A stretch of 64,000 bases of DNA from Paraspadella gotoi (GCA_051294375.1 CM119269.1:7062430-7126429), one strand, 5' to 3'. Counted from the stretch's first letter, positions 1,423 through 57,870 are shown. Notes: a model not told the origin generated them from the sequence alone. A program made the numbers and translations.

Positions 1423-2022
1423 GGCGTAGTGAAAGTTACATACAAAAATTCTAAAAGTCAATTATGAACAACATATTATCATTGAACATTAATTTGTAAA
1501 AAATTAATTTTATATTTTTTTAATTTTCGCAGTAGGCTATATTTATATATAGTACTATCCTTATAAAATCGAAAATTTCAAAATAGGCTTTCTTATTTTT
1601 GATTGCAGATTTGAATTCATCAAAAGTTGATAAAAGAAAATATAAATCATTTTTAAAAATTCTTTCATTAAGTGGGTTAAAAATAAAAAAACTATATTTA
1701 ATATATAAAAGTTTAATTTTCAGTTTAAAATATAGCTTTTTTTAATTTTTGACCCACTTAATGAAGGAATTTTTCAAAAAGAGTTATATTTCTTTTTATC
1801 AACTTTTTATGACGAATCCAAATCTGCAAAAAAATATTAAAAAAAAACTGTTTTGAAATTTTAACATTTATTGGTTTAGTACTAGTATAAATATGGCCTA
1901 CTGCGTAAATTGTAAAATTTATTATATATTTTTTTATTACATAAATGTTTATGTGTATAATGTTGTTCGTTCTTCACTTTTAGAATTTTAATTAAAGTTA
2001 AATTTAGAAATTTTATTACGCC
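1423..2022. mobile_element. ~600 bp foldback MITE, possibly Kolobok-like
   Basis: Imperfect ~290 bp inverted arms (e.g. cgcagtaggc/gcctactgcg, cattaagtggg/cccacttaatg, aaaagttgataaaa/ttttatcaacttt). Termini are (a)taa-GGCGTA and TACGCC-ttaa. Confidence 0.65.
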
Positions 2023-3426
2023 TTAATGTCCAACTATTAATTAAAAATCGTTGTTAAAAATTCAAAATTCTTGAGTTGCAAGTTAAACGAAAAGGCCAAT
2101 CCATCTGATATTTTTTATGAATTTTTTATTACTGAATTAGAAAAATGTAATAGAGAGACATTTTTAAATTTCTTTGAAAATGAAATGTTTTTAAACTTTA
2201 ACCTGAATTCTTTCTAACTGGAACGCGTTTATCAAAATGTCTCTCTATTACATTTTTACAAATGTTTTTAAGATTGCTAATCAAATTTTTAAATCAATAT
2301 TATTGCAGTCGTTTAGGCCGCAACTCTTCAAATTCAGTGTAGATTCATTGTAGCTCAAATTTCTTTACCATCTATTTAACTGAAGATTTTGTTCATGACT
2401 GGAAAACCAACGGAGTAACGAGATTAATTGTTTAATTCTCCCCTTCTAAATTATCCCTTACCGTGTTTTAACTTCTTACCTAGAATTTTTTAACAACCAG
2501 ATTGAAAAACAAATCTTTAAAAATGTGCTTACCCATTTAAAAAAATGATTGAAAACAGATTTTTTTACATAAATAAAAACTTATTTTTATGTGATTACTA
2601 ATGACTACAATGTATTTCTCGATATATTAGCTCTAATACATCAATGATTACGTATTGTTATGCTGAATGACCTTTCTCTTAAATGAGAAATTCACTCAGA
2701 CGACACAAATTTGTGCCATACAGGATTGCAAACAGATCCAGTTTCCAATCCTTCTCCCGACTCGTCTCCTGACCCATCTCCCAACCAATCTCCAAAACCA
2801 TCTTCTAACCGATCTCCTGACCTTTCTCCTGATCCATCTCCAAATCTGTCTCCCGATTATCTAAAACTAAACAACAAAGTCGAGATTTTAAAATCCAAGT
2901 TTGACGTTCTACGTGAAGAAATAAATTCTCTCCCTATAGCCCGCTATGTTCCCCCACACCGCCGAACTTTTCAACCCCAAGTCCAACATACTTCATGGCG
3001 TCGCAAAAATCCTGCTCCTCTAATTCCACGACTCCTGGACCTCAAGCTCGAGCCCTTAAGTTGTTGGAATTGCAGAATTTCCCGACGCTCGTCTCCAAAA
3101 GATTTTCTTCTCCCTCCCAGACAAACAGATCAGGTACACCTTCTTCCCGTGGCGTGCCTAGGGGGGGGATGTGTGGAGGACCCTTCACCGAGCCACAGGC
3201 CATCCACTTTGGCCGAAAATATTGATGTGAAATGTCCTCCCTCTCTCTCTCTCTCTCACTCTCTCTCACTCTCTCTCTTTGAACACTTGACCAGTTATTA
3301 TTATCTTTCCCTCGATTATGCTCTAAGGTCATTGTTTACTTCATTGCCAAATATCTTCTGTAAATAGACTCTCGAATCCCTCTCATTACAAGTCGCTTAC
3401 CAATTATTTCTATGTCTCTTTAACTT

Positions 3427-3755
3427 ATAATTTAATTTTATACGTACACGTATAAAAAATATAGTTTTTTAATTTTTAGCTAATTTAATATAATAATTTT
3501 TGGATCATCATATTTTATATAATATAACTAACTTTTCATGAGAATCTCCGAATCTGCTTTCAAAACCTAAAAATAAAAACTTTTTTCTAAATTTTGACAT
3601 CTTCCATTGTACAGTATAAATAATGGCCGGCATGAAAACATTTAGAAATATCCACAAAACTTTTTTTCTATATATCAAAAAATGTTGTTTAGTACAACAC
3701 TTTCATATGAACAACTATTAAAATTTTGAATCTGCACAACTTTCCACTACCCTTA
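3427..3755. mobile_element. Right arm of the interrupted foldback MITE
   Basis: Resembles 1725-2022. It ends cactaccctta here and cactacgcctta in the duplicate near 28430. Confidence 0.5.
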
Positions 3756-5504
3756 TTATATGTACATATATATGTTCTTTTCGTAATCGCCTATCCACCA
3801 TTGCATTTTTGCTTTTGTATATACAAATGGCAATCCACAAGTCAACTATAGCACTGGTCCGCTGTTCTGTGCGCCCTAAGACTAATTACCACCTGTATGC
3901 AAGACTCAAAAGTTTAATTGCCAATGTTACACATCACATGGATGTGCGGAAGTTTTAATACCTAATATTTATATTACCATTAGTCCCATTTCTCCTTTCA
4001 CATCTATACTTTTTTAAAAAACTCGCTAAGCGCAAAAGAAGAAAAAAAACAACAAGAACCAGTGTGGATCACTCCGATCCTCGATTCCTTAACGCGCGAA
4101 TCTTGCGTCGGACGAGACCGACTTCAGAAGGACCGTCACGCCTAGTCAATACCATGATCTTTCCCGCATACACAATCTTTTCATTGCCTTCTCTAGTCTG
4201 TTTAGTTGACTTCCAAACTTTCTCAGACTTCCGAAATCGATTCCATTCAATTAGACTTTCTCGGCGAAAGCAATCGGCGAAAATTAGATGACAGAGAAGT
4301 TCGCACCTGAACTCATCTTGCCCATCCGAGCATAATTGTCGTCTTCCGCTAATCAACAACTTTAGGAAGGATAAAATGGCATTATGTATATACCGTATGA
4401 ACTTTGACTAAATTGTAAGGAGAAATTCTGTCACAGACCTTGAGTCGATGGTAGCAATAGCTCGCAAGAAGAATACTTAAAAAGCTAAATAAATTTCTGG
4501 TTTAAAGCTTTAATCTGTATCCAGAATCCATCAAAAAATTTTAAGATATCAAAAATGTTTTTTTTTCTTATATATATATTAATAATTTTAATTAGGCTAG
4601 TAACTCGACTCAAACGAATACGACATTGACAAAAAATAATTACTATCAATATCTAATGCTACATGCATAGATTATTTAATGCCTGTATACTTAGCATTTA
4701 TATTCTCACCGCCATATGGCTATACTATATCTATTTTTTGGAAAACAAAGAGAGCATCAATAATCTTAATAATTCATATGCGAATCCAACTTTCGCTTAA
4801 CAAAAAGTCACTGCCTCATGAAGCTCTTTATTGGCTTCAGACTAATTTAGAAGCGTGAAGTGAGCACAAGGGAAATAAACATTTTAACTTAAAATATAAT
4901 TGTCCTGTATTCAATTCTTAACGATCATGATGAACATTATTTCTTGTATTTTTCACATTTTAGAATATTTAAACTTGTCCAAAACCCATTTTTTTATAAT
5001 GAACGTGGGAAAAGAGTGCAAGACACTTATATTTATATCCCATTAAGCCTTCTTAAATTTTTTAAAAAAATTTCTTGCTCTTTCTACGGATGTGTGTTAA
5101 TAGAAGAAATATTATGCAAACTAACCCCTTTAATGACAAGTAAATCACTGGCCAATGTGCAACATCCTCATCGCCACTGTCCAAGTTCACAAAAAAATTT
5201 TTTGTATATAAATTTTTAAAATTTTTTTCCTTGAATAAATTACTTGGTTTACACTTTCGTACAACCAGACTCAAGATTTTTTTTTGTAGTAAAAACAAAA
5301 GTTATTTATATATTCTAGTTGCCTAAAAATCCTAGCTTAATTTAATCAAATTGCAAAAAATAAAATTTTAAATATATTTTTTCAAAATATCTGACCTATT
5401 ACAACTATATTGATTGAACCAATTATTGTTTATATAGATGTAAATACAAAAACTGGGAAAGACCCTAAATTAAAATGGTAAAAATAATTTAATTATTCAA
5501 TCTA

Positions 5505-6323
5505 CAAACTAAGTTGTAGTTCATGCAAACGTGATGTCGCCGGCGATATCACGCACGAGTCGCAGGTGTGGTTCTAATTGGGTATGCAGACTATCGTCAT
5601 AATAGCGATATCGCCAAGGGCCCTGGCGATGTCCGCCAGTCCAACTGGCGGACTCGCCAGTGATAAACCAGTAGCCGCATATAATCAACCGCGCAGCTAC
5701 ACGGGGATCGATCATACGGGCTCTCTCACCATAACCTAAACCAGACCTCGTTACTCTGTTCTCCCCTAACCTAACCGGGCCCGGCGGCTCTGTACATCTT
5801 CGTGCCTAACCCCTAACCTAACCGCCTCGACTGCATCAACCAATGGGCCCCTCCCCCAACCATATCCCTAACCGAGCCTCCTGTTCAAATTCCAGCCTCC
5901 CCCTAACCACTAACCCAGGCCCGGCCTCCCGTACACTCTCCGTCCAGCCAACCCTACACCCCTAATGCGTCTTCGATATATCACCCACGGGCCTCTCTCC
6001 AATCCTAAACCCTACAACCGGCCCCCCAAAGGCTTCAAGGTAACAATCTCCGTGCCTCAACCCTAATACCCTAATGTCCCTCGCCAGTACCTCCCTAAAG
6101 CCCTAATCCTAACGCCGGGCCCTCCTGTCATCCGACACCCTCCCTATCCCCTATCCTAAAATTGACAATTAATATTAGCCTAAAAATCAAACTTAATTCA
6201 ACTAACCCTAAAACTTACTCAACCTAGCCCTAAACTAACTCACTAACCATAACTACACCCAACTCAACCCAACGCTACCTAAAACCAACTTCAACCTACC
6301 CTCAACATCTCAACCCTAACACT
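5505..6323 (+). repeat. Palindrome-rich GC head (5505-5710) followed by a composite CCCTAA array
   Basis: The head ctaagttgtagttca..gtcgccggcgat..gagtcgcaggtgtggttctaa recurs at ~25415, ~30270 and ~31920. It is followed by (CCCTAA)2-like blocks separated by 25-35 nt C-rich spacers. Confidence 0.75.
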
Positions 6324-6507
6324 AATCTGAGTTAGTTTAGGCAAAATCGCCATAAAACTAAGAACGCTAGATGTACGTTCACAGCTAAAACGCCAAATGG
6401 CGGGGCGTCATTGGCTAAGTCACGAATTTGGGTCGATTTTCGCACATGACCAAACATCTCCTGCGTTCTAGTCTATCGGCGATTCTCGCCTAAACTAAAC
6501 TCAGATT
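6324..6507. repeat. ~185 bp inverted repeat (hairpin or MITE-like)
   Basis: aatctgagttagtttaggc..aatcgcc..agaacgc..agatgt is mirrored by acatct..gcgttctag..ggcgatt..gcctaaactaaactcagatt. One arm alone recurs at 17764-17838. Confidence 0.7.
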
Positions 6508-7014
6508 GTAAAATTTATTATAAATCTTTTTTTTACACTATAATGTATAATGTGTTCGTTTTCTCAACTTTTAGACTTTTATTTAAAGTTAAATTTAGAA
6601 ACTTTTACACGGCCTTAGTCCCGAAAGGTTAGGTACCGGGCTTGGGCATTCGAAACGCAGAATCGGCTTCCTACTCCAATGACACCGGTCATCGACTGAA
6701 GGTGTCATGCCCACAGGCGGGGTGAACTTGGGCACGCCCGACTACAATTTGTGACTACCTTAATCACATGTATTTCTCATATGTCATGACATGACATACA
6801 ATGACATGACAAGAATACATGACTACAATAAACCTCCTTAAGCCCGTGTATTTTGACATGGCACATGCACTCAAAATTCCGTCTTTATTCGCTTTATAGG
6901 TATTAGGATTTCCTGAAGGCGACGCAAAGCAGTCCCTAAGATTTGAGTTTATTGTTTGTCTTACCAAATGAGCCAACCAACTATAGTGAAATATTGCATT
7001 TTTAACGTAAGTGG

Positions 7015-16570: not shown

Positions 16571-16944
16571 CAAATGAACTTGTCTTCTCTAATAATAACA
16601 TCGACCATTTGGGAGTCTCAAAATGATTGAACAAAGACAACGCGATGAACATCAATGACAAAACGTACAACGAAAGTCTTTGGTACTTTGTGAGCCGTAG
16701 TACAGTAGTGATCAAATAAGTAATGACCTGATCCTCAATCTGATGAGATCCTTTTTCTCAGCCTAATGTAAATACTAAGTTGTTGTTGTTTATTAATTTT
16801 TATCATTTTTTACTTTTTCNNNNNNNNNNNNNNNNNNNNNNNNNTTTTTTGTAGTAAAAACAAAAGTTATTTATATATTCTAGTTGCCTTAAAAATCCAG
16901 CTTTAATTTAATCAAAATTGAAAAAATAAAATTTTAAAATATAC

Positions 16945-18812
16945 CAAGCCTTCCGTTCAACTCTGTGCCTCTCCCTAACCCTAACCCGGGCTCAGCCTCC
17001 CGTACATCTCCAGTGCCTCAACCCTAACCCTAACCGCCTTGATGCATCAACCACGGGCCCCTCCCCCAACCCTAACCCTAAACCAAGCCTTCCCGTTCAA
17101 CTCTGTGCCCTCTCCCTAACCCTAACCAGGCCCAGCCTCCCGTACATCTCCGTGCCTCAACCCTAACCCTAACCGCTTCGATGATCAACCATGGGTCCTC
17201 CCGCAACCCTAACCCTAAACCAAGCCTCCCGTTCAACTCCATGCCTCTCCCCTAACCCTAAACCCAGGCCGGCCTCCGGTACATCTCCGTACCTCACCTC
17301 TAACCCTAATGCCGTTCTGATATATAACAAGGGCCTCTCTCCATCAACCCTAACCCTAAACCGGCAGCCTGCTCGTTCACTCCACCTCAATCCCTACCCT
17401 AATGCCTCGATATAAACCCAGCCGGGGCCTCTCTCTACTGCTCAACCCTAACCGCTAACCGCGTGATAACCCAGGCTCTCGCCCATCCACTAAGGGCAGC
17501 TCGGTACATCTCGCGTGCCTCACCTATCTAATTCCTGCCCATACACGCGGGCTCTTGGTCATCAACAACACCCTCCCCTACCCTATCCCTAAGAATTGGA
17601 CAATTAATAATAAGCCTAAATAAAACTTAACTTTACAACCTACGAACCCTAACCCAACCTAACCCTAAACTATCAACCCTAACCCTAACTACTCAACGCC
17701 TAACCGGCTAACTACTACCTACTCAACCCTAACCCTAAACCAACTCAACCTAACCCTAACCCTAATCTGAGTTTATTTTAGGCGAAATCGCCATAACTAG
17801 AACGCTAGATGTAGTTCAGTGCGAAATCGCCATTTTGCTTAACCCTAACCCTAACCTACACTACTCAACCCTAAACCCTACCTAACTCAAAATCCAAACA
17901 TATCTACTAAAACTACTCAACCCTAACCCTAAAACACAATTTGTAAACTCTCTAACGCCTAACCCATGCTTTGGATAACGATATTCAACCCTAACCCTCG
18001 AGAATCTCATAACGTCAAGCTAAAAAATGCATTTGTAAACTCTCAAACCCTAACCCTAACTCAAAAATCCAAACATATCTACTAAAAACTACTCAACCCT
18101 AACCCTAAAACACCAATTTGTAAACTCTCTAACCCTAACCCATGCTTTGATAACGATATTCAACCCTAACCTCGAGAATCTCATACGTCAAGCTAAAAAT
18201 GCCATTTGTAAACTCTCAAACCCTAACCCTAACTCAAAAAACTCAATACGTCCCTTATTTTTATGTTTTGTAAACTCTTCAACCCTAACCCTAGCTAAAA
18301 AACGCGTTTGTAAACTCCCTACCCTAACCCTAACTCGAAAAACTTAATACGTCCTTATTTTTATATTTTGTAAACTCTTCAACCCTAACCCTAGCTAAAA
18401 AACGCGTTTGTAAACTCCCAAACCCTAACCCTAACTAAAAAAATTCAATATGTCCATATTTTTATATTTTGTAAACTCTTCAACCCTAACCCTAGCTAAA
18501 AACGCGTTTGTAAACTCCTAACCCTAACCTAACTCGAAAACTCAATACGTCCTTATTTTTATATTTTGTAAACTCTTCAACCCTAAACCCTAGCTAAAAA
18601 CGCGTTTGTAAACTCCCTAACCCTAACCTAAACTCGAAAAACTCAATACGTCCTTATTTTTATATTTTGTAAACTCTTCAACCCTAACCCTAGCCAGAAT
18701 CTCATACATTGTATTTATTTTCATTTAAATATCAACGTAAACTGCTAAACCCTAACCCTGTAGTTCAAATATTAGTATTTTTTACCGTGTGTAAACTGCT
18801 CAACCCTAACCC
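16945..18812 (+). repeat. Composite interstitial telomere-motif array with (AACCCT)2 blocks separated by conserved spacers
   Basis: 16945-17760 has C-rich spacers like those at 5720-6320. 17850-18812 has AT-rich spacers, including a ~100 bp two-part unit (..tacgtccttattt..tgtaaactcttc-aaccctaaccct-agctaaaaacgcgtttgtaaactcc..) repeated about 5 times. Confidence 0.85.
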
Positions 18813-19486
18813 GTAGTACAAATATTACTATTTTTGATTTCGTAGTACTTTCTTTGTTGCCTACCCGTGTGCACGCCTAAAATCGGCCTGTACGAGGTTC
18901 CAACGCAATAGGATCCTATGTTAAACGCCTTTCATTGTTTGGCTCCGCGGACAAAAATTTTTTCTCCCTAAACAGAGGTTCTTTATATATTTGGGGAATG
19001 GGTCTGGCTTTTTCTGGAAATTTGAGTGTCTCACCTACCCTTATAAGAGAGCCTCTTTAACGTTATTCCTATTGGGTTGGAACCTCGTAGTGAATCGAAT
19101 TTCCTATGTGTAGAGGCAGGCAGCGGGTATCGGCGCCCGAGCCGTGGCTGGGACTGAGAGCCATCGTTGTCTGCGTCGTCTTTGATCGCCCGGGAGACGG
19201 GCATTGGTCTTGACCGTCACGCCTCCTCGCCAGGATATCCGGGTAGGAGGGGGCAACGACGGGCACGGTCTTTTGGTAGACCATGATGGTTCTTTCGGCG
19301 GTCACCGGCGACCGTCGACCGCAGATTTGAGATTCCCGCCGCTGATCGAGGCTGCGCTGGCCGGGCAACGGTCACGATACGATAGACGGATTTTTCGGCG
19401 ATCCCCGGCGATCGTCGACTGCAGATTTGAGATTCCCGCGGTTGATCGAGGCAAGCGGAGACGGAGACCGGTGTTTAAAAAAATTG

Positions 19487-20060
19487 GTGCATGCGTGGGA
19501 TTCGATCCGTGATTCGCCGTGACTCCGTCAGGGCGATCACGGGGGAAAATTTCATGAAACGGTGAACGTCAGACCCGAGTTCGTTCGCTCGTGCTCATTT
19601 ACGGGTAACGGGGATGTCGTAGGTTAAGAGAAAAGTCGCGGGCCCATGCCTTTTCTCTGTCCCGCGCCGTCGCCAATTATTCGTATATAAATAAGCGCGG
19701 GTATCGAACCTGTGACTCGCCGTGACTCCGTCAGGGCGAATCGCTTCTCTAAGGGAGAAATCTAGGCGATAGGCGATCGGCGATCGGCGATCGGCTCCCT
19801 CGCCGAATTTTCTTCCAATTACGGGTAACGGAGATGACGTAGGTTACGGGAAAAGTCGCGGCCAAGGCTTTTCTCAATGTCCCGCGCCGTCGCCAATTAT
19901 TCGTATTTAAATAAGCGCGGAGGAGGAACCTGTGACTCGCCGTGACTCCGTCAGGGCAAATCGCGGGGGTAAAAAAATATATAAAATATTTTTAAAAAAG
20001 TCGTGCATGCTCGGGAATCGAACCCGTGACTCGCCGTGACTCCGTCAGGGTGATCCCGGA
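19487..20060. repeat. Four copies of GTGACTCGCCGTGACTCCGTCAGGG, most preceded by a reverse-complement tRNA T-arm/B-box-like motif
   Basis: Copies lie at ~19509, 19711, 19931 and 20025. The minus strand at ~20003-20027 reads GGGTTCGATTCCCGAGCATGCA. A ~145 bp duplication covers 19597-19742 and 19818-19962. Confidence 0.8.
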
Positions 20061-20712
20061 GAAAATTTCAGGCCCGAGCGAGCACGGTCGGGAGCGGAAT
20101 GAAAAAAAGTAGTTCCGTCGGCCTTCGGTGAACATCGGACCCGGGTTCATTCGCTCGTTAACCGAAAAGTCAAATAATGCTAAAATATGACAAAAATACC
20201 CGCGAACGATGGAAAAGCCCGGTAAAAATGTCGGATACACACATGTTTCGGGACTGGGTTCTCTCGTTCATGCGCCGCCATTTTGTATTCATCCGCGAAT
20301 CATTTCCCAGTAATAATAAAGAACGGCAAGGAAATAGAGGACGGTAAAGGACGGAATAGTGCAAAAAGCACGAAAAAACGCTAAATGTTGGAATGAAAGC
20401 CTTATACTCGGCCGCGGGGTCGATCTCGGTCTCGTCTTGGTCTCGGTCGGGGAAAAAAAAGGATGGGAAAGCGCGAAAAAGCGCGAATATAGAACGAAAG
20501 TCAAATGGCCCCGGTGTCGGTCTCGATCATCGGGAAGGGAAAAAACGGACGGTAAAGTCAGCCTAAGGTTTCACGCGGGTGACCTTATAAAAATTCGTTT
20601 CTCTACCGTGACCTGAGAAGCGAATAAGCCAGGCAGTAATTGACCATAGTTCACGGTAGGCTATGAGCGATCTCGCAGCAAGGGGATCGATCATTTTGTG
20701 TTTTTGCTAACT

Positions 20713-21066
20713 ATGGATCATTTTACTTGCCTCGAATGTAACAAAAATTACCCACGAGAAACCCGCGGGAAAGGAATAACATGGGCAAAATCCGCGAACG
20801 AAAAATGGGTAAAAATTCGCTGTGGGAAAGAGACTGCTTACCCGTGTCCTAAAAATGAATGCAATGGTTGCAGCGCAACCTATGCACGACTTCGTGAACA
20901 CTTTTGGAACACGCACGGGTTCCGAATGACGACGCTTTCAACTACGGAGGGAGAGGACCTTCGCAGGCGCGCAAGACAAAAACTGTGCGCTATTCTTGAT
21001 GGAAAAAACTGGCCCGATGCCCCTGCATCGCCCGCTAATGAGATCCCACGAGCCCGGAGAAAATAA
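20713..21066 (+). CDS. C2H2 zinc-finger-containing ORF, probably the 5' part of the recombinase gene
   Basis: YPCPKNECNGCSATYARLREHFWNTHG fits C-x4-C-x12-H-x4-H, and there is an additional CLEC near the start. Coding-like sequence continues to ~21209 after a frameshift. Confidence 0.65.
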   Translation: MDHFTCLECNKNYPRETRGKGITWAKSANEKWVKIRCGKETAYPCPKNECNGCSATYARLREHFWNTHGFRMTTLSTTEGEDLRRRARQKLCAILDGKNWPDAPASPANEIPRARRK

Positions 21067-21309
21067 CGACCACGGCCTCGGAGCAGATGGAGGGGTCGGT
21101 AGAGGCGGAACCGGCTGTTGAGACTTCTATGATCTCTCTACCCTTCCAACAGCCCATCTTCTTCCACAACTCGGTCCGGTCTCCTGTGGTTCGTACTCCT
21201 TCTCCTAAGGTAATTCGTAGGGAGGGGAGGGTACAGTAGGTACATGCGCTGGATAAATTTTCGGGAAGGGGCCTGTTCACGGGGTAATAACCTTTTTCCC
21301 TGCTTACAG

Positions 21310-22307
21310 ATTCCGCAAGCTAAACTCCCGGATGATCTACGTAGTTGATGGATGACCGCTACTCTCGCGCTACGGTGTCTGCGTATTCTGTTCACATTGG
21401 CCGGTTCATGGCTTTCTGCCATCCTTTCAGCGCAGAATACGCCTTTGAAGCAAAAAAACTTGAAAAGTTTTTGTCCCTATCGACGGTCCCTACTACGCGC
21501 AGTGTTAGCGGTCTCCAGCCTTGGAAGTCTACGTATGTACCTCGTCGCCCGCCGGAATATGAGCCGTCAGAGATAGATAGGGTGATCTGGGATGACATCC
21601 GGCGCGTGACACAAAGGCAAAACGCGTCAGACAGACCAAGGTTACCCTGACCAAAAACCGGGTAGGACAAGATTTAAAGTCACTACGTCCCCTCTTTCGG
21701 AACCCACGAGACGACCATCGCTTCTTGGATATCTCTCGGTCGGCAAAGAAGCGAGCTATAACACGGACTGAATACAATTTCGTCTCGGCATATGTGGCTT
21801 TTGAAGGTGTTCTCCCAACGAATGCAAAACGGCTGGGAAATCTTGCCCGCCTTACCCTTTCATCAATCTACAAAGCGCGGGGGTGAGCGGAAAGTCCGGG
21901 CCTTGGGTAGTGCAGGTCGAATGGCGACAAAGATTAAAGCTCCGGATGCATATGTCGTAAATGATCCCCTGTCAAAGGGGCTTCTGCTACGTTTTATTCG
22001 CAACATACGTCCTTCTCTCAAAACAGTCGCAGCCTCACGGTATCTATTTCCGCAGTATGATGGCCAGGCTCGGGGAACCTCGGCCTTTGCCGCTATCCTT
22101 CGGACCTTCGCTAGGTCCCGGGGAATTGATGGTTTCAACATAACAACTCTACGGCGTGCTGTGGCCTCGGCAGGCGCTGAGGACGCCGGAACGGACAGGG
22201 CAGCGCTTGCCCAGGCGCTTGGTCACACGCAAGTGATTCAGCGTCAGTTTTTACCTTCGCGATCGGATGCACAAAAAGTCCGCGAATCATCGAAGTTGAA
22301 CGACTAG
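21310..22307 (+). CDS. Tyrosine recombinase (phage-integrase fold), frameshifted in this assembly
   Basis: Contains a core-binding-like segment YSRATVSAYSVHIGRFMAF, a candidate first Arg in FSQR, IRP..YLFP, a box II variant ITTLRR, and LAQALGHT. Removing one T from the T5 run at 22248-22252 gives GHTQVIQRQFY, with the same H-x8-Y spacing as XerD. AATAAA lies at 22477. Confidence 0.75.
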
Positions 22308-22852
22308 TTACTCGCGAATTCGGCCAGGAGAAGTCATGGAAAAAACGTTACGGCCGCGTAAACTTGATCCGTCAGACTCACCAACTGGGTCGGGGGGGTC
22401 GGAAGAGGGTACGGGGATGTAGCTTTGACTGTTTCCTTTTGACTGCCTAAAGATTCATGCCCAATTAATGCATAGTAATAAACATGTATTTTAATTTCCA
22501 ATGTTGAGGACTCCATGGTGAGAGTAACAAAAAGTAGGGTGAAGTCCCGTCCCCGTGTAGCTAGTTTTAAACACGCGGGACAGGCATGAAAAGCAAGACC
22601 GGCCGCGGGGTTGGTCTCGAATGAAAGATGGTATGGAAATAGCTGAGTGGTGTCCCGTGGTGGGACTGCGGCTTCCGAGGCATAGTTATAGCAAAAAACA
22701 AGTTTCACGCCTAGCAGGAAACAGGCGGGACGGGTATATAAAAGCATGGACAGCCGTGGGATTGCTCTAGAATGAAAGATGATATTGAGAAGACCGAGCG
22801 GTGTCCCACAGTGGGACTGCGGCTTCCTAGGCATGGGTATTTGATCGAGAAA

Positions 22853-25360
22853 GCCGAGCGGTGTCCCATGGCGGGACTGCGGCTCCAATTGTCGTAATAC
22901 ATGCGTCGAACCATTGGGTAGTTCGGGTCCCGAGAGTCGACTCGACTACTCTCTACGGGCACGTCTGGGTAAGGGGAAGTTCTTTCTCTGAGCCTAAGTA
23001 CCGCTCTTGGTTGTCCGCGTGTGAAAACATTTCTCAATGGGGGTCGCGGGACCCTTGTGATCGCCAGGCCCACGGTCTGGTCCAATTATGCAAGGGGCCG
23101 AGCGGTGTCCCACGGCGGGACTGCGGCTTCAAAATCGTCGGTAATACACGCGTCGAACCATTGGGTAGTTCGGGTCCCGAGAGTCGACTCGACTACTCTC
23201 TACGGGCACGTCTGGGTAAGGGAAGTTCTTTCTCTGAGCCTAAGTACCGCTCTTGGTTGTCCGCGTGTGAAAATATTTGTCAATGGGGTCACGGGACCCT
23301 CGTGATCGCCAGGCATCCGGGCTTGTCCGATCACGCAGAAGGGGCCGAGCGGTTTCCCACAGCGGGACTGCGGCTTCAAAATCACCGGTAAATGCATGCG
23401 TCGAAACCATTGGGTAGTTCGGGTCCCGAGAGTCGACTCGACTACTCTCTACGAGCACGTCTGGGTAAGGGGAAGTTCTTTCTCTGAGCCTAAGTACGCT
23501 CTTGGTTGTCCGCGTGTGAAAACATTTCTCAATGGGGGTCGCGGGACCCTCGTGATCGCCAGGCCCACGGTCTGGTCCAATTACGCAAGGGGCCGAGCGG
23601 TGTCCCACGGCGGGACTGCGGCTTCCAAATCGTCGGTAATACACGCGTCGAACCATTGGGTAGTTCGGGTCCCGAGAGTCGACTCGACTACTCTCTACGG
23701 GCACGTCTGGGTAAGGGGAAGTTCTTTCTCTGAGCCTAAGTACCGCTCTTGGTTGTCCGCGTGTTGAAAACATTTCTCAATGGGGTCGCGGGACCCTCGT
23801 GATCGCCAGGCCCACGGTCTGGTCCAATTACGCAAGGGCCGAGCGGTGTCCCACGGTGGACTGCGGCTTCCAAATCGTCGGTAATACACGCGTCGAACCA
23901 TTGGGTAGTTCGGGGTCCCGAGAGTCGACTCGACTACTCTCTACGGGCACGTCTGGGTAAGGGGAAGTTCTTTCTCTGAGCCTAAGTACCGCTCTTGGTT
24001 GTCCGCGTGTGAAAACATTTCTCAATGGGGTCGCGGGACCCTCGTGATCGCCAGGCCCACGGTCTGGTCCAATTACGCAAGGGGCCGAGCGGTGTCCCAC
24101 GCGGGACTGCGGCTTCCAAATCGTCGGTAATGCATGCGTCGAACCATTGGGTAGTTTCGGGTCCCGAGAGTCGACTCGACTACTCTCTACGGGCACGTCT
24201 GGGTAAGGGGAAGTTCTTTCTCTGAGCCTAAGTACCGCTCTTGGTTGTCCGCGTGTGAAAACATTTCTCAATGGGGGTCGCGGGACCCTCGTGATCGCCA
24301 GGCCAACCGGGCTTGTCCAATTACGCAAGGGGCCGAGCGGTGTCCCCACGGCGGGACTGCAGCTTCCAAATCGTCGGTAATACACGCGTCGAACCATTGG
24401 GTAGTTCGGGTCCCGAGAGTCGACTCGACTACTCTCTACGGCACGTCTGGGTAAGGGGAAGTTCTTTCTCTGAGCCTAAGTACCGCTCTTGGTTGTCCGC
24501 GTGTGAAAACATTTCTCAATGGGGGTCGCGGGACCCTCGTGATCGCCAGGCCCAGGTCTGGTCCAATTACGCAAGGGGCCGAGCGGTGTCCCCACGGCGG
24601 GACTGCGGCTTCAAATCGTCAGTAATACACGCGTCGAACCATTGGGTAGTTCGGGTCCCGAGAGTCGACTCGACTACTCTCTACGGGCAAGTCTAGGTAA
24701 AGGGAAGTTCTTTCTCCGAGCCTAAGTATCGCTCTTGGTTGTCCGCGTGTGAAAATATTTGTCAATGGGGTCACGGGACCCTCGTGATCGCCAGGCATCT
24801 GGGCTTGTCCGATCACGCAAGAAGGGGCCGAGCGGTGTCCCACAGCGGGACTGCGGCTTCAAATCACCGGTAAAGCATGCGTCGAACCATTGGTAGTTCG
24901 GGTCCCGAGAGTCGACTCGACTACTCTCTACGAGCACGTCTGGGTAAGGGGAAGTTCTTTCTCTGAGGCCTAAGTACCGCTCTTGGTTGTCCGCGTGTGA
25001 AAACATTTCTCAATGGGGTCGCGGGACCCTCGTGATCGCCAGGCCCACGGTCTGGTCCAATTACGCAAGGGCCGAGCGGTGTCCCACGGCGGGACTGCGG
25101 CTTCCAAATCGTCGTAATACAACGCGTCGAACCATTGGGTAGTTCGGGTCCGAGAGTCGACTCGACTACTCTCTACGGCACGTCTGGGTAAGGGGAAGTT
25201 CTTTCTCTGAGCCTAAGTACCGCTCTTGGTTGTCCGCATGTGAAAACATTTGTCAATGGGGTCGCGGGACTCTCGACTCACTTGAGAGGCCGAGCGGTGT
25301 CCATGGCGGGTCTGCGGCATTTGAAGGGCCAAGGGGTGTCCCACGGCGGACTGTGGCTCC
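22853..25360. repeat. Tandem array of about 10 highly similar ~245 bp GC-rich units
   Basis: The unit start gccgagcggtgtccc occurs at ~22853, 23097, 23344, 23592, 23838, 24084, 24332, 24578, 24827 and 25071, with short degenerate copies of the core motif at 25289 and 25328. Confidence 0.95.
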
Positions 25361-25414
25361 CGAGGGATTGAACAAGGCCTAGGTTAGGCTTGACATTGAC
25401 GAAACTCACGTAGA

Positions 25415-26081
25415 ACCTAAGTTGTAGTTCATTCAAATAGCGATNNNNNNNNNNNNNNNNNNNNNNNNNGTCGCCGGCGATTCACGCACGAGTCGCAGGT
25501 GTGGTTCTAATTGGTTGGCGACTTCGTCATAGCGATATCGCCAGGGCCCTGGCGATGTCGCCAGTACCCCCACTGGCGACCTCGCCAGTGATAAAAGTAG
25601 CGAATATAATGAAAAGCGCAGCTAACACGGGGATGAACATCACCTATGGGCTCCTCTCCCAACCCTAACCCTAAACCAGACCTCCCGTTCAACTCTGTGC
25701 CTCTCCCCTAACCCTAACCCGGGCCGGGGCCTCCTGTACATCTTCGTGCCTTAACCCTAACCCTAACCGCCTTCGATGCATCAACCATGGGCCCCTCCCC
25801 CAACCCTATCCCTAAACCGAGCCTCCTGTTCAATTCCATGCCTCTCCCCTAACCCTAACCCAGGCCCGGCCTCCCGTACATCTCCGTAGCTCAACCCTAA
25901 CCCTAATCGTCTTCGATATATATCCCACGGGCCTCTCTCCCAATCCTAACCCTAAACCGGGCCCAGGCCTGCCATACATCTCCGTGCCTCAACCCTAATC
26001 CCTAATGTCCCTCACCAGTACCTTCCCTAAGCCTAATCCTAACGCGGGCCTCCTGGTCATCAACGACACCCTCCCTACCCC
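25415..26081 (+). repeat. Second copy of the palindromic head plus composite CCCTAA array
   Basis: Colinear with 5505-6150. Confidence 0.85.
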
Positions 26082-26091
26082 NNNNNNNNNN

Positions 26092-29000
26092 CTCGATTAT
26101 GCTCTAAAGTCATTGTTTACTTCATTGTCAAATATCTTCTGTAAATAGACTCTCGAATCCCTCTCATTACAAGTCGCTTACCAATTATTTCTATGTCTCT
26201 TTAACTTATAATTTAATTTTAGTACATATAAAAAATATAGTTTTTTAATTTTTAGCTAATTTAATAAGAGGAGGAAGGAGAGAGAGAGCGGGAGAGAGGC
26301 GAGCAGAGAGGAGCGAGAGTGAGGGGAAGAGTGGCCTACTGCCGTAAATTGTAAAATTAATTATAAATTTTTATAATCATAACAGCTAAAAATGCTATTA
26401 CAGATAATACGATTGTAATCGTAATCCCTTCACTTTAGATATTTAAATTAAATAAAATTTAGAACAATTTTACTACGCTCTAAAGTCGCAACTATTAAAT
26501 AATAATCGTGTTAAACGAATTCAAAATTCTTTGCTTTCTCTAAAATATAACCAAATAAAAAGACAATCTAATCTGAACGCCAGACTTGCAAAGTCAACAC
26601 GAAAAAGGCAATCCATCGATTACTTATTCTATGACAATTATTTTCAATTACTCCTAATTCAGACACAATTAATCAGAAGACACTTTTTAACCACTTTACC
26701 TCTGAAAATGAAACGTTTTAAACTTTAACCATATTCTTTCTAACTGGAACGCGTATCTATCAAAATTCCATCATCTATTACATTTACAAATATTATTATA
26801 ACGCATTGCTAACTCAAACTCTTTTTAACATCCAAAATTTACTTGCAAAGTCGTTATACGCCGGCTAAGCAACTCTCTCCATTCCAGTGAGACATTGCCT
26901 AGCTCGATCTCTTCTTCTACCAGCATTCTAACATGAAGATTGCTTCATCAGCATAGAGGAGAAACCAACAGAGTAAACGGAGTTAATTGTTTATTCATCC
27001 CCCTCTAAATTAATCCCTCTACCGGTTTTTAACTTCTTAACCATATTATTTTAAACAAACACAAGATGAAAACAAATACTTAAAAAGGCTTCCTTCTAAA
27101 CACCTGATTAAACAGATGATTTAAATAAAAACTTATTTTGTCTGGCTGATCTACTACATGACTACACCAGTCATATGTCTCGACATATATTAACGCCTAA
27201 TCACATCAAATAGATTAACGCCTATGCTTATCGAACTGACCATCTCCTCTTAAATAGAGCAAAACTTCACCTCAGAAGAACCACAATTTGTCCCATACAG
27301 GATTGCAAACAGCATCCACGCTTCCATCCATCTCCACGAATCGGTACTCCATGCACCCATCTCCCCGGCAACACAATTTCCAAACCATCTCTAACCGATC
27401 TCCCTGACTTTCTTTCTCCAAGATCCATCTCCAAATCTGTCTCCCCCGACTTATCTAAAACTAAACAACAAAGTCGAGATTTTAAAATCCAGTTTGCACC
27501 GCTTCTAACCATCGAACAAAAATCAAATTCTCAATCCCCAACTACGCCAGAAACCGCATATCGTAAACACCCCAACGGCCGTAACTATTTCAACCACCGA
27601 AGTCCACACATACTCAATGGCGTCGCAAAAATCTGCTCCTCTAATTCCACACTCACTGACCTCAAGCAGAATTTCCCGACGCTCCGAACTCCAATAGATT
27701 GTTCCTCTCCTCTCCCAGACAAACTAATCAGCCGATACCTTTCTTCTCCGCATGGCGTGCCTAGGGGGGAATATTGTGGTGGAGACCTCTTCACCGATCC
27801 ACAGCCCCATCCACCTTTGCCGAAGATAATTGATACTGAAATGTCGCTCGTCCTCTCAGTCTCTCTCAATTCATCATCTCTTAATCACTCTCTCTCTCTC
27901 TCTCTCTTTGAACAACTTGACCACGTTATTCATTATCTTTCCCTCCGATAATGCTCTAAGGTCCATTGTTTACATTCATCTGCCAAATACTTCTGGTAAA
28001 TAGAACTCTCCGAAATTCCCTCATCATTCAAGATCCGCCTAACCAATTACTTTCTAATGTCCCTTTAACTTATAATTTAATTTTAAATACGTACACGTAT
28101 AAAAAAATAGTTATTTATTCTTAGCTTCAATTGTAATATAATAATTTTTGGATCATATACATACTTTTTATATAATATAACTCAATTTTCAATGAGAATC
28201 TCCCGAAAGTCTAGCCTTTCANNNNNNNNNNNNNNNNNNNNNNNNNCAAAACTAAAAAAAAACTTTTTTCAAATTTTGACATTTTCCATTGTAAGTACTA
28301 TGTATAACTATGGCCGCATGAAAAAATTTAGAAATTCCCCCAAAAATTTTTTTATATATCAATGTTGTTTAGTACAACACTGTTCATGAACATTGAACAA
28401 CTATTCAAATTTTGATCTGCAACTTTCACTACGCCTTATTATATGTACATATATATGCTCTTTTCGTTAATGCTATCCACCATTGCCATTTGCTTTTGGT
28501 ATATGACAATGGCATCCACAATGTCAACTTAGCACTGGTCGCTGTCCTGTGCGCCCTATAACTAATAACCACCTCTTGCAAACTCAAAAAGTTTATTGCC
28601 AATGTACAACAATGGATGTGGGGAAGTTTAATACCTAATATGAGTTATTACTATTAGTCATTTCTACCATTTCACTCCTACATTTAAAACTCGCGAAGTC
28701 GCAAAAAGGAAAAAAAACAACAACAGTTGGATCAGCTCCGTCCTCGATTCCTTACACGCGGAATCTTAGCGTCGCGACGCCGATTCAGAGGACCGTCACG
28801 CCTAGTGCGATACCATGCCACCTTTCCGCATACACAATCTTTTCTTCCTTCTAGTCTGATTTATTGACTTCCAAACTTTCAGACTTCCTAATCGATTCCA
28901 TTGCAATTTAGACTTTCTCGGCGAAAGGAATCGGGAAATTAGATTGACAGAGAATTCGCACCTGAACACATCTTTGCCCATCCGAGCATAAATTTAGTCG

Positions 29001-32000
29001 TCTTCCGCTATCCAACTTTAGGAAGGACTAAAAATGGCATTTGTTATATACCGCTATAGAAACTTTGACTAAATTGTTAAAAGGAGAAATTCTGTCACAA
29101 CCTTTAGAGTGATGGTAGACAATCACGCCGCAAAGAAGAATACTTAAAAAAGCTATAATAAATTTCTGGTTTAAAAGCTTTTAATCTGTATCCAGAATAC
29201 CATCAAAAAAATTTTAAAGATAATCAAAAATTGTTTTTTTCTTATAATATATTACTTTTTAATAATTTTAATTACGGACAGTAACCACTCAAACGAATAC
29301 GACCATTCGAACAAAAAAATAATTACTATCAAAATAATCTAATGCTCACAGCATAGATTACTTTAATGCCTGTACTAACTTACATATTTATATTCTTCAC
29401 CCGGCCCAATATGGAGCTAAACTATATTCTATTTTTTGGAAAACAAAGAGGAGCATCAAATAATCTTATAATTTCATAATTGCGAATCCCAACTATTCAG
29501 CTTAACAAAAAGTCTCACTGCCTCACTGAAAGGCTCTTTATGCTTCAGACTAATTTAGAATGGTGAGAGTGAGCACAAAGGGAAATAAAAACATTCTTAA
29601 CTTAAAATACATAGTCCTGTCATTCAAGTTTAACGTATCATAGATGCAATCAATTATGATTCTTGTAATTTTTTCAACATTTTAGAAAAAAATATTTAAA
29701 CTCCTGTCCCCAAAACCCATTATTTTTTTTATTAAAATTGAACGTGGGGAAAAGAGTGCAAGACAACTTACTATTTATATCCCCCATTAAGCCTCTTAAA
29801 ATTCTTTTAAAAAATTCTTGCTCTTTCTATCTTGGATGTGTATGTTAATAGAGAGAAATAATTATGCAAACATTAAACCACCTTTATTGACAAGTAAATC
29901 ACTGGCACAATGTGCAACATCCCATTCGCCACTTCCAAGTTCACAAAAATTTTAGTATATAAAATTTTTAAAATTATTTTTCCATTGAATAAATATATCT
30001 TTGGTTACACTTTACGTACAAACCAGACTCAAGATTTTTTTGTAGTAAAAACAAAAGTTATTTAATAATTCTAGTTGCCTTAAGAAATCTAGCTTAATTC
30101 AATACAAAATTGAAAAAATAAAAATTTTATAATATATTTTTTCAAAATATCTGACCTATTCTAACTATATTTGATTGAAACCAATATTGTTTATATAAGT
30201 ATCACAAAAACTGAGGAAAGACCCTAAATTAAAATGGTAAAAATAATTTGAATTATTCACAATCTACAAAACCTAAGTTGTAGTTCACTCAAACGTGATG
30301 TGCAGCCGCGATATCAGCGCAACAGAGTCGCAGGTGTGGTTCTAAATTGCGGTATGCACGACTATCGTCATAAAGCGATATCGCCAAGGGCCCTGGCGAT
30401 AGTCCGCCAGATACCCCCCACCTGCCGGACCATCCGCCAGGTGATAAANNNNNNNNNNNNNNNNNNNNNNNNNGCTATAATTAAATTTCTGGTTTAACTT
30501 TTTATGCTGTATCCGAATCCATCAAAAAATTTTAAGATGTCAAAAATGTTTTTTTCTTTATATAATTATATAATAATTTTAATTAGGCTAGTACCCTCAG
30601 AAGAAAGCATTTTTGACAAAAAATATTTACTACCATAATCTATGCTCATAATAGATTATTTTAACGCTGTATACTTTAGCATTTATATTTCACCGGCTAT
30701 GGCTANNNNNNNNNNNNNNNNNNNNNNNNNNNNNNNNNNNNNNNNNNNNNNNNNNNNNNNNNNNNNNNNNNNNNNNNNNNNNNNNNNNNNNNNNNNNNNN
30801 NNNNNNNNNNNNNNNNNNNNNNNNNNNNNNNNNNNNNNNNNNNNNNNNNNNNNNNNNNNNNNNNNNNNNNNNNNNNNNNNNNNNNNNNNNNNNNNNNNNN
30901 NNNNNNNNNNNNNNNNNNNNNNNNNNNNNNNNNNNNNNNNNNNNNNNNNNNNNNNNNNNNNNNNNNNNNNNNNNNNNNNNNNNNNNNNNNNNNNNNNNNN
31001 NNNNNNNNNNNNNNNNNNNNNNNNNNNNNNNNNNNNNNNNNNNNNNNNNNNNNNNNNNNNNNNNNNNNNNNNNNNNNNNNNNNNNNNNNNNNNNNNNNNN
31101 NNNNNNNNNNNNNNNNNNNNNNNNNNNNNNNNNNNNNNNNNNNNNNNNNNNNNNNNNNNNNNNNNNNNNNNNNNNNNNNNNNNNNNNNNNNNNNNNNNNN
31201 NNNNNNNNNNNNNNNNNNNNNNNNNNNNNNNNNNNNNNNNNNNNNNNNNNNNNNNNNNNNNNNNNNNNNNNNNNNNNNNNNNNNNNNNNNNNNNNNNNNN
31301 NNNNNNNNNNNNNNNNNNNNNNNNNNNNNNNNNNNNNGAAAGAGTGCAAGAACTTATTTTATCCCATAAGCTCTTAATTTTTTTTAAATTTTGCTCTTTT
31401 TTTGGATTGTGTTGTTATAGAAGAAATATTTATGCAAATACCCTTTATNNNNNNNNNNNNNNNNNNNNNNNNNNNNNNNNNNNNNNNNNNNNNNNNNNNN
31501 NNNNNNNNNNNNNNNNNNNNNNNNNNNNNNNNNNNNNNNNNNNNNNNNNNNNNNNNNNNNNNNNNNNNNNNNNNNNNNNNNNNNNNNNNNNNNNNNNNNN
31601 NNNNNNNNNNNNNNNNNNNNNNNNNNNNNNNNNNNNNNNNNNNNNNNNNNNNNNNNNNNNNNNNNNNNNNNNNNNNNNNACAACCAGACTCAGATTTTTT
31701 TTGTAGTAAAAACAAAAGTCATTTATATATTCTAGTTGCCTTAAAAATCCAGCGTTAATTTAATCAAAATTGAAAAAATAAAATTTTAAAATATATTTTT
31801 TTCAAATATCTGACCTATTTAAACTATATTGATTGAACCAATTATTGCTTATATAGGTATACAAAAAAATCGTGGGAAAGACTAAATTAAAATGGTTAAA
31901 AATAATTTAATTATTAATCTAAACCTAAATTGTAGTTCATTCAAATAGTGATGTCGCCGGCGATTCACACACGAGTCGCAGGTGTGGTTCTAATTGGTTG

Positions 32001-32033
32001 GCGACTTCGCCATAGCGATATCGCCAGGGCCCT
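26092..32033 (+). repeat. Error-rich duplicated copies of the ~1.9-5.7 kb segment, separated by N gaps
   Basis: 26335-28220 matches 1895-3560, 28246-30447 matches 3570-5667, 30474-30705 matches 4485-4722, 31338-32033 matches 5008-5625, and 26092-26250 matches 3310-3490. Differences are mostly indels. Confidence 0.9.
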
Positions 32034-34959: not shown

Positions 34960-35482
34960 ACGAGAATTATTTGGTCAACTGGCATAATTTGGTCAACTGA
35001 CATAATTTTGTCAGCTGGCATAATTTGGTCAACTGACATAATTTGGTCAACTGACATAATTTGATTAACTAACATAATTTGATCAACTGACATAATTTGG
35101 TAAACTGACATAATTTGGTCAACTGACTTAATTTTTTTAACTGACATAATTTGTTCAACTGACATAATTTGGTCTACTAACATAATTTGGTCAATTAACA
35201 TAATTTGGTCAACCGGCATAATTTGGTCAACTGGCATAATTTTATCAACTGGCATAATTTGGTCAACTGGCATAATTTGGTCAACTGGCATAATTTGGTC
35301 AACTGGCATAATTTGGTCAACTGGCATAATTTGGTCAACTGGCATAATTTGGTCAACTGGCATAATTTGGTCAACAGGCATAATTTGGTCTACTGGCATA
35401 ATTTGGTCAACTGGCATAATTTGGTCAACTTGCAGAATTTGGTCAACTGGCATATTTTTGTCAATTGGCATAATTTGGTCAA
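34960..35482. repeat. 18 bp minisatellite (GGCATAATTTGGTCAACT) in about 29 copies
   Basis: Direct tandem copies start immediately after a DINE-like end sequence (aacaagtttgagcaaacaatgtcggatctgcc, 34927-34962). Confidence 0.95.
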
Positions 35483-51418: not shown

Positions 51419-51508
51419 TTTTGAGATTAAGAGTTCGTTGAAACCAGTGGCTGCGCCAATACATGTAAATCACAAAAGGGTTTAAACTGAACTGTTACTG
51501 CGGTACTA

Positions 51509-57402: not shown

Positions 57403-57543
57403 GGACGGACATCATTTTTTGCATAATGTAAGTGTAATGTAAGATTTAAGTGAATGACCGACAAGATTGAGGGGGCGGACCGACGGACCGACAAAGTGAA
57501 TTATAGAGTCGGAATCTGCTGATAAGCAGATCCGGCTAAAAAG
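56128..57543 (-). mobile_element. Apparently complete DINE-1/HINE-like non-autonomous Helentron
   Basis: Subterminal inverted repeats GTCGGATCTGC (~56147) and GCAGATCCGGC (~57527), a hairpin cggaatctgc-tgataa-gcagatccg next to the A-run end, a (GACA/GACG)n microsatellite at 57352-57410, internal ~19 bp tandem repeats at 56320-56600, and an AACAAG terminus. Confidence 0.7.
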
Positions 57544-57577
57544 CCTACATTATTCGATACGAGGACCAAGCTAGGAA

Positions 57578-57870
57578 AGCCGACTACTCCAAGGACGACA
57601 AGGACGACGACTACGCCAAGAAACAACGTCAAACACGCCAAGGACGCCTTATATGTCAATGACGCCAAGGTCAGCGACTACGCCAAGGACGCCGACTACG
57701 CCAAGGACGACAAGGACGCCGACTACGCAAGAAACAACGTCAAACACGCCAAGGACGCCTTATATGTCAAAGAGGCCAAGGTCAGCGACTACGCCAAGGA
57801 CGCCGACTACGTCAAGGACGCCGACTACGCCAAGGACGCCGACTACGCCAAGGATGCAAACTACGTCAAA
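57578..57870. repeat. 18 bp-based minisatellite (GACTACGCCAAGGACGCC) with a ~110 bp higher-order duplication
   Basis: Direct tandem copies immediately after the DINE-like end. Confidence 0.85.

What the first reader, a model, noticed from the sequence alone, without database searches (positions are those of the whole stretch)
17764..26081. Zinc finger plus tyrosine recombinase element embedded between telomere-motif arrays and carrying its own structured tandem array
Seen: the order is composite CCCTAA array, tRNA-arm-like repeats, C2H2 ORF, YR fragments, ~10 x 245 bp array, palindromic head, then another CCCTAA array. Established: eukaryotic YR elements are mainly DIRS/Ngaro/VIPER (with RT) or Cryptons (YR only, often with introns). 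Inference: this is a YR-only DNA element whose combination of ZnF, long structured array and telomere-motif flanks I do not recognise. It may target or carry CCCTAA arrays, and the YR-less head plus CCCTAA modules at 5.5, 30.3 and 31.9 kb could be non-autonomous derivatives or empty sites.
Basis: partly seen in the sequence, partly recalled or inferred. Interest (0 to 1): 0.85.

Follow-up and report, generated by a model that had tools for sequence, protein, structure and literature searches.

The report
Recombinase transposon carrying telomere-like repeats
This is a repeated, likely young jumping gene with one predicted-spliced zinc-finger recombinase gene and built-in arrays of telomere-like and 246-base repeats; it shares sequence with a roughly 15-fold more abundant short repeat and likely moves as a DNA circle, which makes it an unusually built relative of Crypton transposons rather than a telomere-homing element.

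Summary
The layout is real. The 'ORF plus fragments' is one gene: C2H2 finger, predicted 100-nt intron, SAM-like domain, tyrosine recombinase. No RT, capsid or polymerase frame was seen. Contigs from three studies cover it; two single contigs span it at over 99% identity, and the listed contig indels fall where the window's frames break. About seven 246-bp units go with each gene copy; they fold no better than shuffles. The CCCTAA arrays are internal composite satellites, never more than two pure units, not telomere tracts. The 'head' is 10-15 times deeper than the gene: an abundant short family (S). The modules at 5.5, 30.3 and 31.9 kb look like re-reads of one S insertion. Best reading: a Crypton/CryptonV-like element sitting at the left junction of a resident S copy. 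Its left end is unresolved and telomere targeting is unsupported. C2H2-SAM-YR architecture is published for nimavirus integrases; membership was untestable. The scan noted similar telomere-associated YR elements in other genomes (unchecked). New variant of a known kind.

The parts
16845..16943 (.). Remnant of flank X, the same A/T-rich flank that precedes the head at 5.5, 30.3 and 31.9 kb; joined straight to array A with about 150 nt of flank and the head missing (real deletion or assembly splice, unresolved)
   Evidence: 98% to 31697-31795, 93% to 5280-5377, 90% to 30036-30136
16943..17763 (+). Array A of the long element: 137-bp composite units with CCCTAA doublets, then a degenerate CCCTAA run; a different copy from the array A at 25.6 and 5.7 kb
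   Evidence: 29 sites unite 5.7 kb with 25.6 kb against it; 3-4 the other way
17764..17836 (+). 'Arm': diverged, same-orientation internal look-alike of the joined ends (TAGAAC-N6-TGTAGTTCA at 17798)
   Evidence: 4 matches, 0.13 expected; pattern chosen after seeing two of them; score 41, best of 3035 background tiles 36; left half alone not significant
17837..18830 (+). Array B: 173- and 101-bp units interleaving CCCTAA doublets with TTGTAAACT; a third TGTAGTTCA at 18759
   Evidence: its last units are joined to the unique body in contigs at gene-level depth (records 9, 17, 25)
18891..19089 (.). 23-nt inverted repeat pair, 153 nt apart; 19056-19121 is shared with another abundant repeat
   Evidence: I1; depth peak and loose ends at 19056-19121
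19474..20070 (-). Four copies of a ~45-nt core ending in a B-box-like word, two followed by T runs; Pol III-like look only, no tRNA call
   Evidence: negative
20713..21209 (+). Predicted exon 1: ATG, C-x2-C word, C2H2 finger (20845-20916), linker; frame broken in the window
   Evidence: contig indels
21210..21309 (+). Predicted GT-AG intron with pyrimidine tract; splicing not observed
   Evidence: all listed contigs that cover it run through it
21310..22307 (+). Predicted exon 2: SAM-like domain (21345-21500) and YR catalytic domain: Arg 21830 and Lys 21930/21936 (assigned from recalled motifs), Thr in place of the His of H-x-x-R, Arg 22152, His 22224, Tyr codon 22252 in the neighbouring frame; AATAAA at 22477
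   Evidence: a contig of run X3 departs from the window at 22251
22569..25275 (+). Degenerate lead-in units and the 9.8 x 246-bp G+C-rich tandem array (22853-25275)
   Evidence: depth 4.6-6.9 times the gene in X5, 6.7 times in X8
25276..25417 (+). Right end of the YR-bearing body, ending in GTAGAAC
   Evidence: records 1 and 17
25411..25431 (+). End-to-head junction; shares AAC plus CTAAGTTGTAGTTCA with the flank-to-head junctions
   Evidence: depth steps up at 25413
25418..25650 (+). Palindromic head of the abundant short family S; the 25-N gap inside it has zero true length
25640..26081 (+). Array A of the resident S copy (same copy as 5.7-6.15 kb)
5511..6508 (+). S without the YR body: flank X, head, array A, CCCTAA run, then arm-loop-inverted arm (6326-6508 hairpin); noisy raw-read quality
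   Evidence: hairpin z -7.98
30274..30448 (+). Flank X-head junction again, cut by a gap; likely re-read
31926..32033 (+). Flank X-head junction again, cut by a gap; likely re-read

Best explanation
A multi-copy DNA element with one predicted-spliced zinc-finger tyrosine-recombinase gene and internal telomere-motif and 246-bp arrays sits head-to-tail against a copy of a much more abundant short repeat, and it likely moves Crypton-fashion as an excised DNA circle. Shown: gene pieces in collinear order, near-identical copies in three studies' contigs, linkage of gene, 246-bp array and the end of array B, the abundance of the head, and the shared junction word. Inferred: the element (about 8.5-9 kb) begins with its own head, now lost at the 16943 join; the recombinase joins the right end (..GTAGAAC) to the left end across a short AAC/CTAAG core; the circle recombined with the flank-head junction of an older resident S copy, turning X|S into X-L-S; the finger and SAM-like domains bind the repeated TGTAGTTCA / TTGTAAACT words; S is a non-autonomous partner moved in trans. 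The CCCTAA doublets are passengers or host-protein sites inside the element, not its target.
For: YR hits in four libraries at the right model positions, with the SAM-like piece matching integrase N-termini; ESM neighbours 0.96 (a 'Tyr recombinase' cluster) and 0.97 (unnamed chordate and mollusc clusters, then DUF3504 and DUF3435 as weak leads); homologue P0001 is named integrase and has Tyr nine residues after the LGH His. Single contigs of 2116 nt (X5) and 2196 nt (X8) span 20477-22582 with 11 and 16 substitutions. Array depth about 7 times the gene, so no large pool of arrays without the gene. Head contig 1946 against gene contig 130 in X5, 508 against 48 in X8. Depth steps up at 25413, and 2 contigs of X1 carry other flanks ending just before 25414. 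The array A right of the body is the same copy as the one at the X|S site, the one left of it is not. Crypton model and non-autonomous partners: PMC3212892, PMC9977147.
Against: The left end was not seen: no contig was laid on 16845-18700 and the 16943 join is unexplained. The end-head junction is one assembly contig; contig cover across 25376-25412 is clear only in X1 (about 189, read from bin depths), thin in X3 and X8, absent in X5, and no listed record bridges 25414. Everything right of 25444 lies beyond an N gap and may have been scaffolded there. S does not end like L (it ends in a hairpin), which is atypical of a deletion derivative. The His of H-x-x-R is Thr (also Thr in P0001 and P0003). 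Folds were uninformative (pLDDT 46.5 and 40.4). No tree was possible, no circle was observed, and no RNA holder was listed.
Confidence: 0.6

Rival explanations
1. The YR element is only the stretch from the arm or array B to 25417. The head and array A belong to an unrelated abundant repeat (MITE- or Helentron-like) that it happens to abut, uses as a landing pad, or was scaffolded beside.
For: S is 10-15 times more abundant and ends differently; the window's head differs from the main family contig at 7 of 151 sites while the YR body differs at 11 of 2106; gaps on both sides.
Against: The arm and the TGTAGTTCA word are shared by S and L; array B continues the same unit family as the run before the arm; the arm resembles the end-head junction; end and head are contiguous left of the gap.
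Confidence: 0.22
2. The element targets telomere-type repeats, like nimavirus integrases, TATE or some CryptonV families, and the arrays are decayed targets or subtelomeric satellite.
For: C2H2-SAM-YR architecture matches telomere-specific nimavirus YRs (PMC10871703); CCCTAA motifs on both sides of the arm; earlier scan notes describe such elements elsewhere (unchecked).
Against: No pure tract over 2 units; flanks seen at the head are A/T-rich; array B ends are fixed to the body at gene depth; that this host uses TTAGGG telomeres was not tested.
Confidence: 0.08
3. The element persists partly as an episome or concatemer. Its telomere nonamers, interleaved with its own binding words, would recruit shelterin-type proteins as at the EBV origin, and the 246-bp array would act as a tether.
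For: 32 nonamers interleaved with 13 TTGTAAACT words, none of the latter elsewhere in the window; head-to-tail junction; high homogeneity of copies; EBV precedent (PMC13223232 abstract); nimavirus concatemers or episomes.
Against: No direct evidence for circles; depth ratios fit a few integrated copies; subterminal repeat arrays are common in DNA transposons (own knowledge).
Confidence: 0.07
4. It is the integrase end of a larger endogenous virus (Polinton-like or nimavirus-like) cut short in this assembly.
For: The nearest ESM clusters of the C-terminal piece are Preplasmiviricota.
Against: Both sides run into S sequence and flank X; no other long coding frame in 16.8-26.1 kb outside the array; the Arg-motif piece is nearest to animal clusters; three viral-contig scans gave no true relative.
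Confidence: 0.03

Closest known systems
CryptonV (Kapitonov and Jurka 2012, Repbase Reports; seen only as one sentence and a reference in PMC8869645 and as table entries in PMC5753468 and PMC4455052)
   Same: YR-encoding DNA transposon of animals associated with simple repeats; no RT.
   Different: Here the repeat motif is inside the element and the flanks seen are not microsatellite. No CryptonV sequence or structure description was available to compare.
Cryptons A/I/F/S (PMC3212892: abstract, sections 5 and 8, passages; PMC9977147: passages)
   Same: Single YR gene, intron, no TIRs, short shared core at junctions, proposed circular intermediate, more abundant non-autonomous partners.
   Different: No DUF3504 hit in Pfam for the six frames scanned (ESM lead only, 0.85); N-terminal C2H2 finger; long internal arrays; the short family does not share the right end.
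Telomere-associated nimavirus integrases (PMC10871703: passages)
   Same: C2H2 + SAM-like + YR domain order; telomere motif next to the junction; concatemer or episome hints.
   Different: Those sit in 278-580 kb viral genomes flanked by (TAACC)n tracts; here one gene in under 10 kb, no viral genes, no pure tract. Sequence kinship untested.
TATE / VIPER, DIRS, Ngaro (PMC6681497: passages)
   Same: YR; TATE forms tandem clusters in telomere hexamers; the same-orientation internal junction look-alike recalls split direct repeats.
   Different: They encode RT/RNase H and Gag; no such frame here, and the internal junction copy is only about 60 nt and diverged.
EBV oriP (PMC13223232: abstract only)
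   Same: Telomeric nonamers beside sites for an element-encoded DNA-binding protein.
   Different: Analogy only; unrelated protein, no evidence of episomal replication here.

Membership tests
Crypton (broad) | Encodes a tyrosine recombinase with the R-H-R-Y set | tested here: met
   Arg, Arg, His(III) and Tyr present, His(II) is Thr; first Arg assigned from a recalled motif; Tyr is in the neighbouring frame at a point where a contig departs from the window
Crypton (broad) | No reverse transcriptase or other enzyme needed; gene may have introns | tested here: met
   no other long non-array ORF in the span; intron predicted only. The assembly is noisy, so a broken second gene is not fully excluded.
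Crypton (broad) | No TIRs; short (4-6 bp) terminal direct repeats or none | tested here: inconclusive
   no terminal inverted repeat among the 25 longest of 28 pairs; AAC shared by right end and flanks, but the left end of L was not seen
Crypton (broad) | Multi-copy, dispersed, with empty sites | tested here: inconclusive
   multi-copy and homogeneous; dispersal of L not shown; X|S versus X-L-S looks like empty versus filled but rests on a gap-filled scaffold
CryptonA/I | YR of the DUF3504 type | tested here: not met
   no PF12012 hit at E up to 1 for the pieces scanned; ESM similarity 0.85 with 112 of 256 features is a lead only; pieces were short
CryptonV | YR falls in the CryptonV clade | not testable with these tools
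   no reference sequence could be fetched; three word-based searches found nothing
CryptonV | Insertion into microsatellites (stated for some families) | tested here: not met
   flank X and the flanks of 2 X1 contigs are A/T-rich, not microsatellite; few flanks seen, and they belong to the head family
DIRS / Ngaro / VIPER / TATE | RT-RNase H and Gag ORFs | tested here: not met
Nimavirus telomere integrase | C2H2 + SAM-like + YR domains | tested here: met
Nimavirus telomere integrase | Lies in a large viral genome flanked by pure telomere tracts | tested here: not met
Starship | DUF3435 captain leading cargo genes | tested here: not met
   no DUF3435 Pfam hit, ESM 0.84 only, no cargo frames

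The most novel reading that the evidence does not exclude
A minimal animal 'integrating plasmid': one zinc-finger recombinase, an oriP-like module of 32 telomere nonamers interleaved with its own binding words, Pol III-like small-RNA repeats and a tether array, which cycles between episome and chromosome and homes to the junctions of its own ~100-fold-amplified short partner as a safe landing site.
Probability: 0.1. Interest if true: 0.85.

Novelty: new variant of a known kind. Interest (0 to 1): 0.47.

Why it matters
Animal YR-only transposons are thinly described: CryptonV appears in only 3 papers of the library, in a sentence or a table. This one looks young and comes with defined candidate sites (end-head junction, internal arm, X|S site), so the circle model could be tested directly, and a eukaryotic spliced site-specific recombinase with a known att site would be in hand. 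The shared C2H2-SAM-YR layout points to a possible small-transposon source for nimavirus integrases. The built-in telomere nonamers raise a testable question: whether a transposon borrows shelterin-type proteins.

Tried and rejected
Word-based protein searches for longer relatives found none (weak evidence). phmmer over 1.84 billion representatives gave 3 hits: P0001 and P0003 are short true-looking fragments, P0002 is a repeat protein matching an out-of-frame stretch and was dropped. Viral and metagenome contig scans were empty; L001 matched antisense to a phage integrase and is taken as chance. Both AlphaFold models were low-confidence and Foldseek gave nothing at E up to 0.001. Rfam gave only chance-level matches in four scans; relaxed ARAGORN calls were not credited. 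No RNA holder listed; X8 was guessed RNA but runs through the intron. The idea of a YR-linked head variant at gene depth was dropped: the residual depth is a sum of low-depth diverged contigs. No CpG depletion signal in any part. Scan look-ups by sequence, relatives and nearby place were blank. Supplements of PMC10871703 were listed, not read; they and Repbase entries may describe related YRs.

Full report
Setting. The window is a gap-filled eukaryotic scaffold with eleven N runs. Block 1894-5667 recurs at 26332-30448 at 78% identity with 315 gap openings against 309 mismatches, the profile of uncorrected long reads. Earlier scan notes call the host an invertebrate animal; I did not test that, nor that its telomeres are TTAGGG.

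Observation. The span is 50-58% G+C outside array B, against about 30-35% around it. Three descriptions fail. The 246-bp unit folds no better than shuffles (z -1.18, +0.17). The tRNA-like arms give no ARAGORN or Rfam call; they are four copies of a short core with a B-box-like end, two with T runs, and B-box words are at chance level window-wide. The CCCTAA arrays are composite satellites whose longest pure run is two hexamers, though 32 of 34 TAACCCTAA nonamers and all 13 TTGTAAACT words of the window lie inside. The head is truly palindromic (z -5.66).

The gene. Three-frame reading shows ATG 20713, a C2H2 finger at 20845, a GT-AG stretch of 100 nt at 21210-21309, a SAM-like piece and a YR catalytic domain. 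The SAM-like piece matches integrase N-termini weakly (Pfam E 0.16; integron integrase positions 10-52, E 0.018) and the last piece matches C-terminal YR positions (Pfam E 0.0033, PHROG E 1.9e-4, NCBIfam E 0.0014), all below curated cut-offs but collinear. The alignment to XerA places Thr at the His of H-x-x-R, keeps the Arg and the LGH His. A Tyr codon lies nine residues after that His in the neighbouring frame, where one X3 contig leaves the window; P0001 has Tyr at that spacing. ESM neighbours are Preplasmiviricota YR clusters for the C-terminal piece (0.95-0.96) and unnamed chordate and mollusc clusters for the Arg-motif piece (0.94-0.97). Only 2 of 3 phmmer hits are credible, both short fragments at 41% and 44%. 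No fold test succeeded. I put the YR identity at about 95%.

Independent contigs. Nine of 11 listed runs hold the stretch, from 3 studies; I laid 4 of them, and one may be the assembly's source. Single contigs span 20477-22582 in X5 (11 substitutions, 18 gaps) and X8 (16, 27). The table lists 12 of 58 indels; those at 21346, 21553, 21618 and 21917 fall where the window's frames switch, so the breaks are most likely assembly errors, but the full frame was not rebuilt. Contig depth is not a copy number; within a run, however, the array is 4.6-6.9 times (X5) and 6.7 times (X8) the gene, and contigs from 18753 join the last array B unit to the body at 158 (X5) and 56 (X8) against 130 and 48 for the gene. 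So gene, array and the end of array B travel together. A 253-nt deletion variant (20223-20477) appears in all four runs and a replacement at 19776-19864 in three, so there are at least two subfamilies. If the shallowest X5 contigs (8-21) are single copy, the gene has roughly 6-17 copies and the head 90-250; this is a rough inference.

The short family and the junction. On 25305-25650 the head contig is 1946 deep in X5 against 74.5 for the element end, and depth steps up at 25413. Two X1 contigs bring other A-rich flanks to 25414. The same word, CTAAGTTGTAGTTCA after AAC, stands at flank-head joins (5.5, 30.3, 31.9 kb, with small read differences) and at the end-head join. All four heads in the window share alleles at 25510 and 25531 that make up 0-0.4% of laid depth in the four runs, and three share flank X, so they are one locus read several times or a very local duplication, not separate derivatives. 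Array A right of the body is the same copy as at 5.7 kb, and array A left of it is another (29 sites against 3-4). The scaffold therefore shows X|S and X-L-S. An internal look-alike of the junction lies at 17798 in the same orientation; in S the arm is followed by an inverted arm forming a 180-nt hairpin. I looked for this after reading scan notes on Crypton-type elements with internal junction copies; there the copy is inverted, here in L it is direct, and only its right part is significant.

Mechanism. Most likely (0.6) the recombinase excises L as a circle by joining right end to head across a short core, and reinserts it at similar sites, here the left junction of an older S. This follows the Crypton model (PMC3212892, passages) supported by live insertions in Chlamydomonas (PMC9977147, passages). 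Against it: L's left end is missing at an unexplained join, no listed record bridges 25414, cover just left of it is clear only in X1, the part beyond 25444 follows a gap, and S ends differently from L. Rivals: unrelated neighbour or landing pad (0.22), telomere targeting (0.08), episome (0.07), viral fragment (0.03).

Comparison. It works like a Crypton. Membership of CryptonA/I is not met (no DUF3504 hit), DIRS/Ngaro/VIPER/TATE not met (no RT), CryptonV untestable; its description was visible only as one sentence (PMC8869645, passages) and table rows (PMC5753468, PMC4455052, passages). The C2H2-SAM-YR order is published for telomere-specific nimavirus integrases (PMC10871703, passages; supplements unread). 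PMC6681497 and PMC9156397 were read as passages, PMC13223232 as abstract. Ten full-text searches showed no small YR element with internal telomere-nonamer arrays, a long tandem array and Pol III-like repeats; Repbase Reports and subscription papers are outside that library.

Verdict. Real, young-looking, unusually built YR-only element with an abundant short associate; new variant of a known kind; interest 0.47. The boldest reading not excluded, an oriP-like episomal element, has probability about 0.1.

Noticed in passing
window 1894-5667, 26332-30448, 30474-32033: The same 3.8-kb A/T-rich block occurs three times at raw-read quality; redundant gap filling or a local tandem duplication. Its start also resumes right after the S hairpin at 6505-6605.
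   Followed up: partly
window 19056-19121: A ~65-nt stretch is about 10-fold deeper than its neighbours in X5 and X8, with loose ends on both sides, one ending in a TATA-like word: a module shared with another abundant repeat, overlapping one arm of a 23-nt inverted repeat.
   Followed up: no
window 25546-25619 (records 8, 22, 29): A 542-nt contig family about 86% alike to the head's second hairpin, with different neighbours: a sister family of S.
   Followed up: no
window 6606-6760: G+C-rich insert just after the S copy; on the minus strand a word resembles a twister core (recalled). Rfam gave no match. Scan notes report twister mini-LTRs in this genome.
   Followed up: partly
window 53818-55002 (-) and 50636-51469 (-): Long hydrophobic ORFs (394 and 277 aa) with no real Pfam hit; probable multi-pass membrane protein exons.
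   Followed up: partly
window 34969-35482: 28.6 x 18-bp tandem array, open on the minus strand as a six-residue repeat; related 18-bp arrays at 50438, 55290 and 56314.
   Followed up: no
window 57526-58065 (+): 179-aa ORF of A/D/K/Y repeats on 18- and 111-bp tandem units; low-complexity Pfam hit only.
   Followed up: no
window 2687-3367 and 27214-27951 (+): Two versions of a Pro/Ser-rich frame in the duplicated block, also partly at 139-424 and 26092-26266; a repeat family of unknown kind.
   Followed up: no
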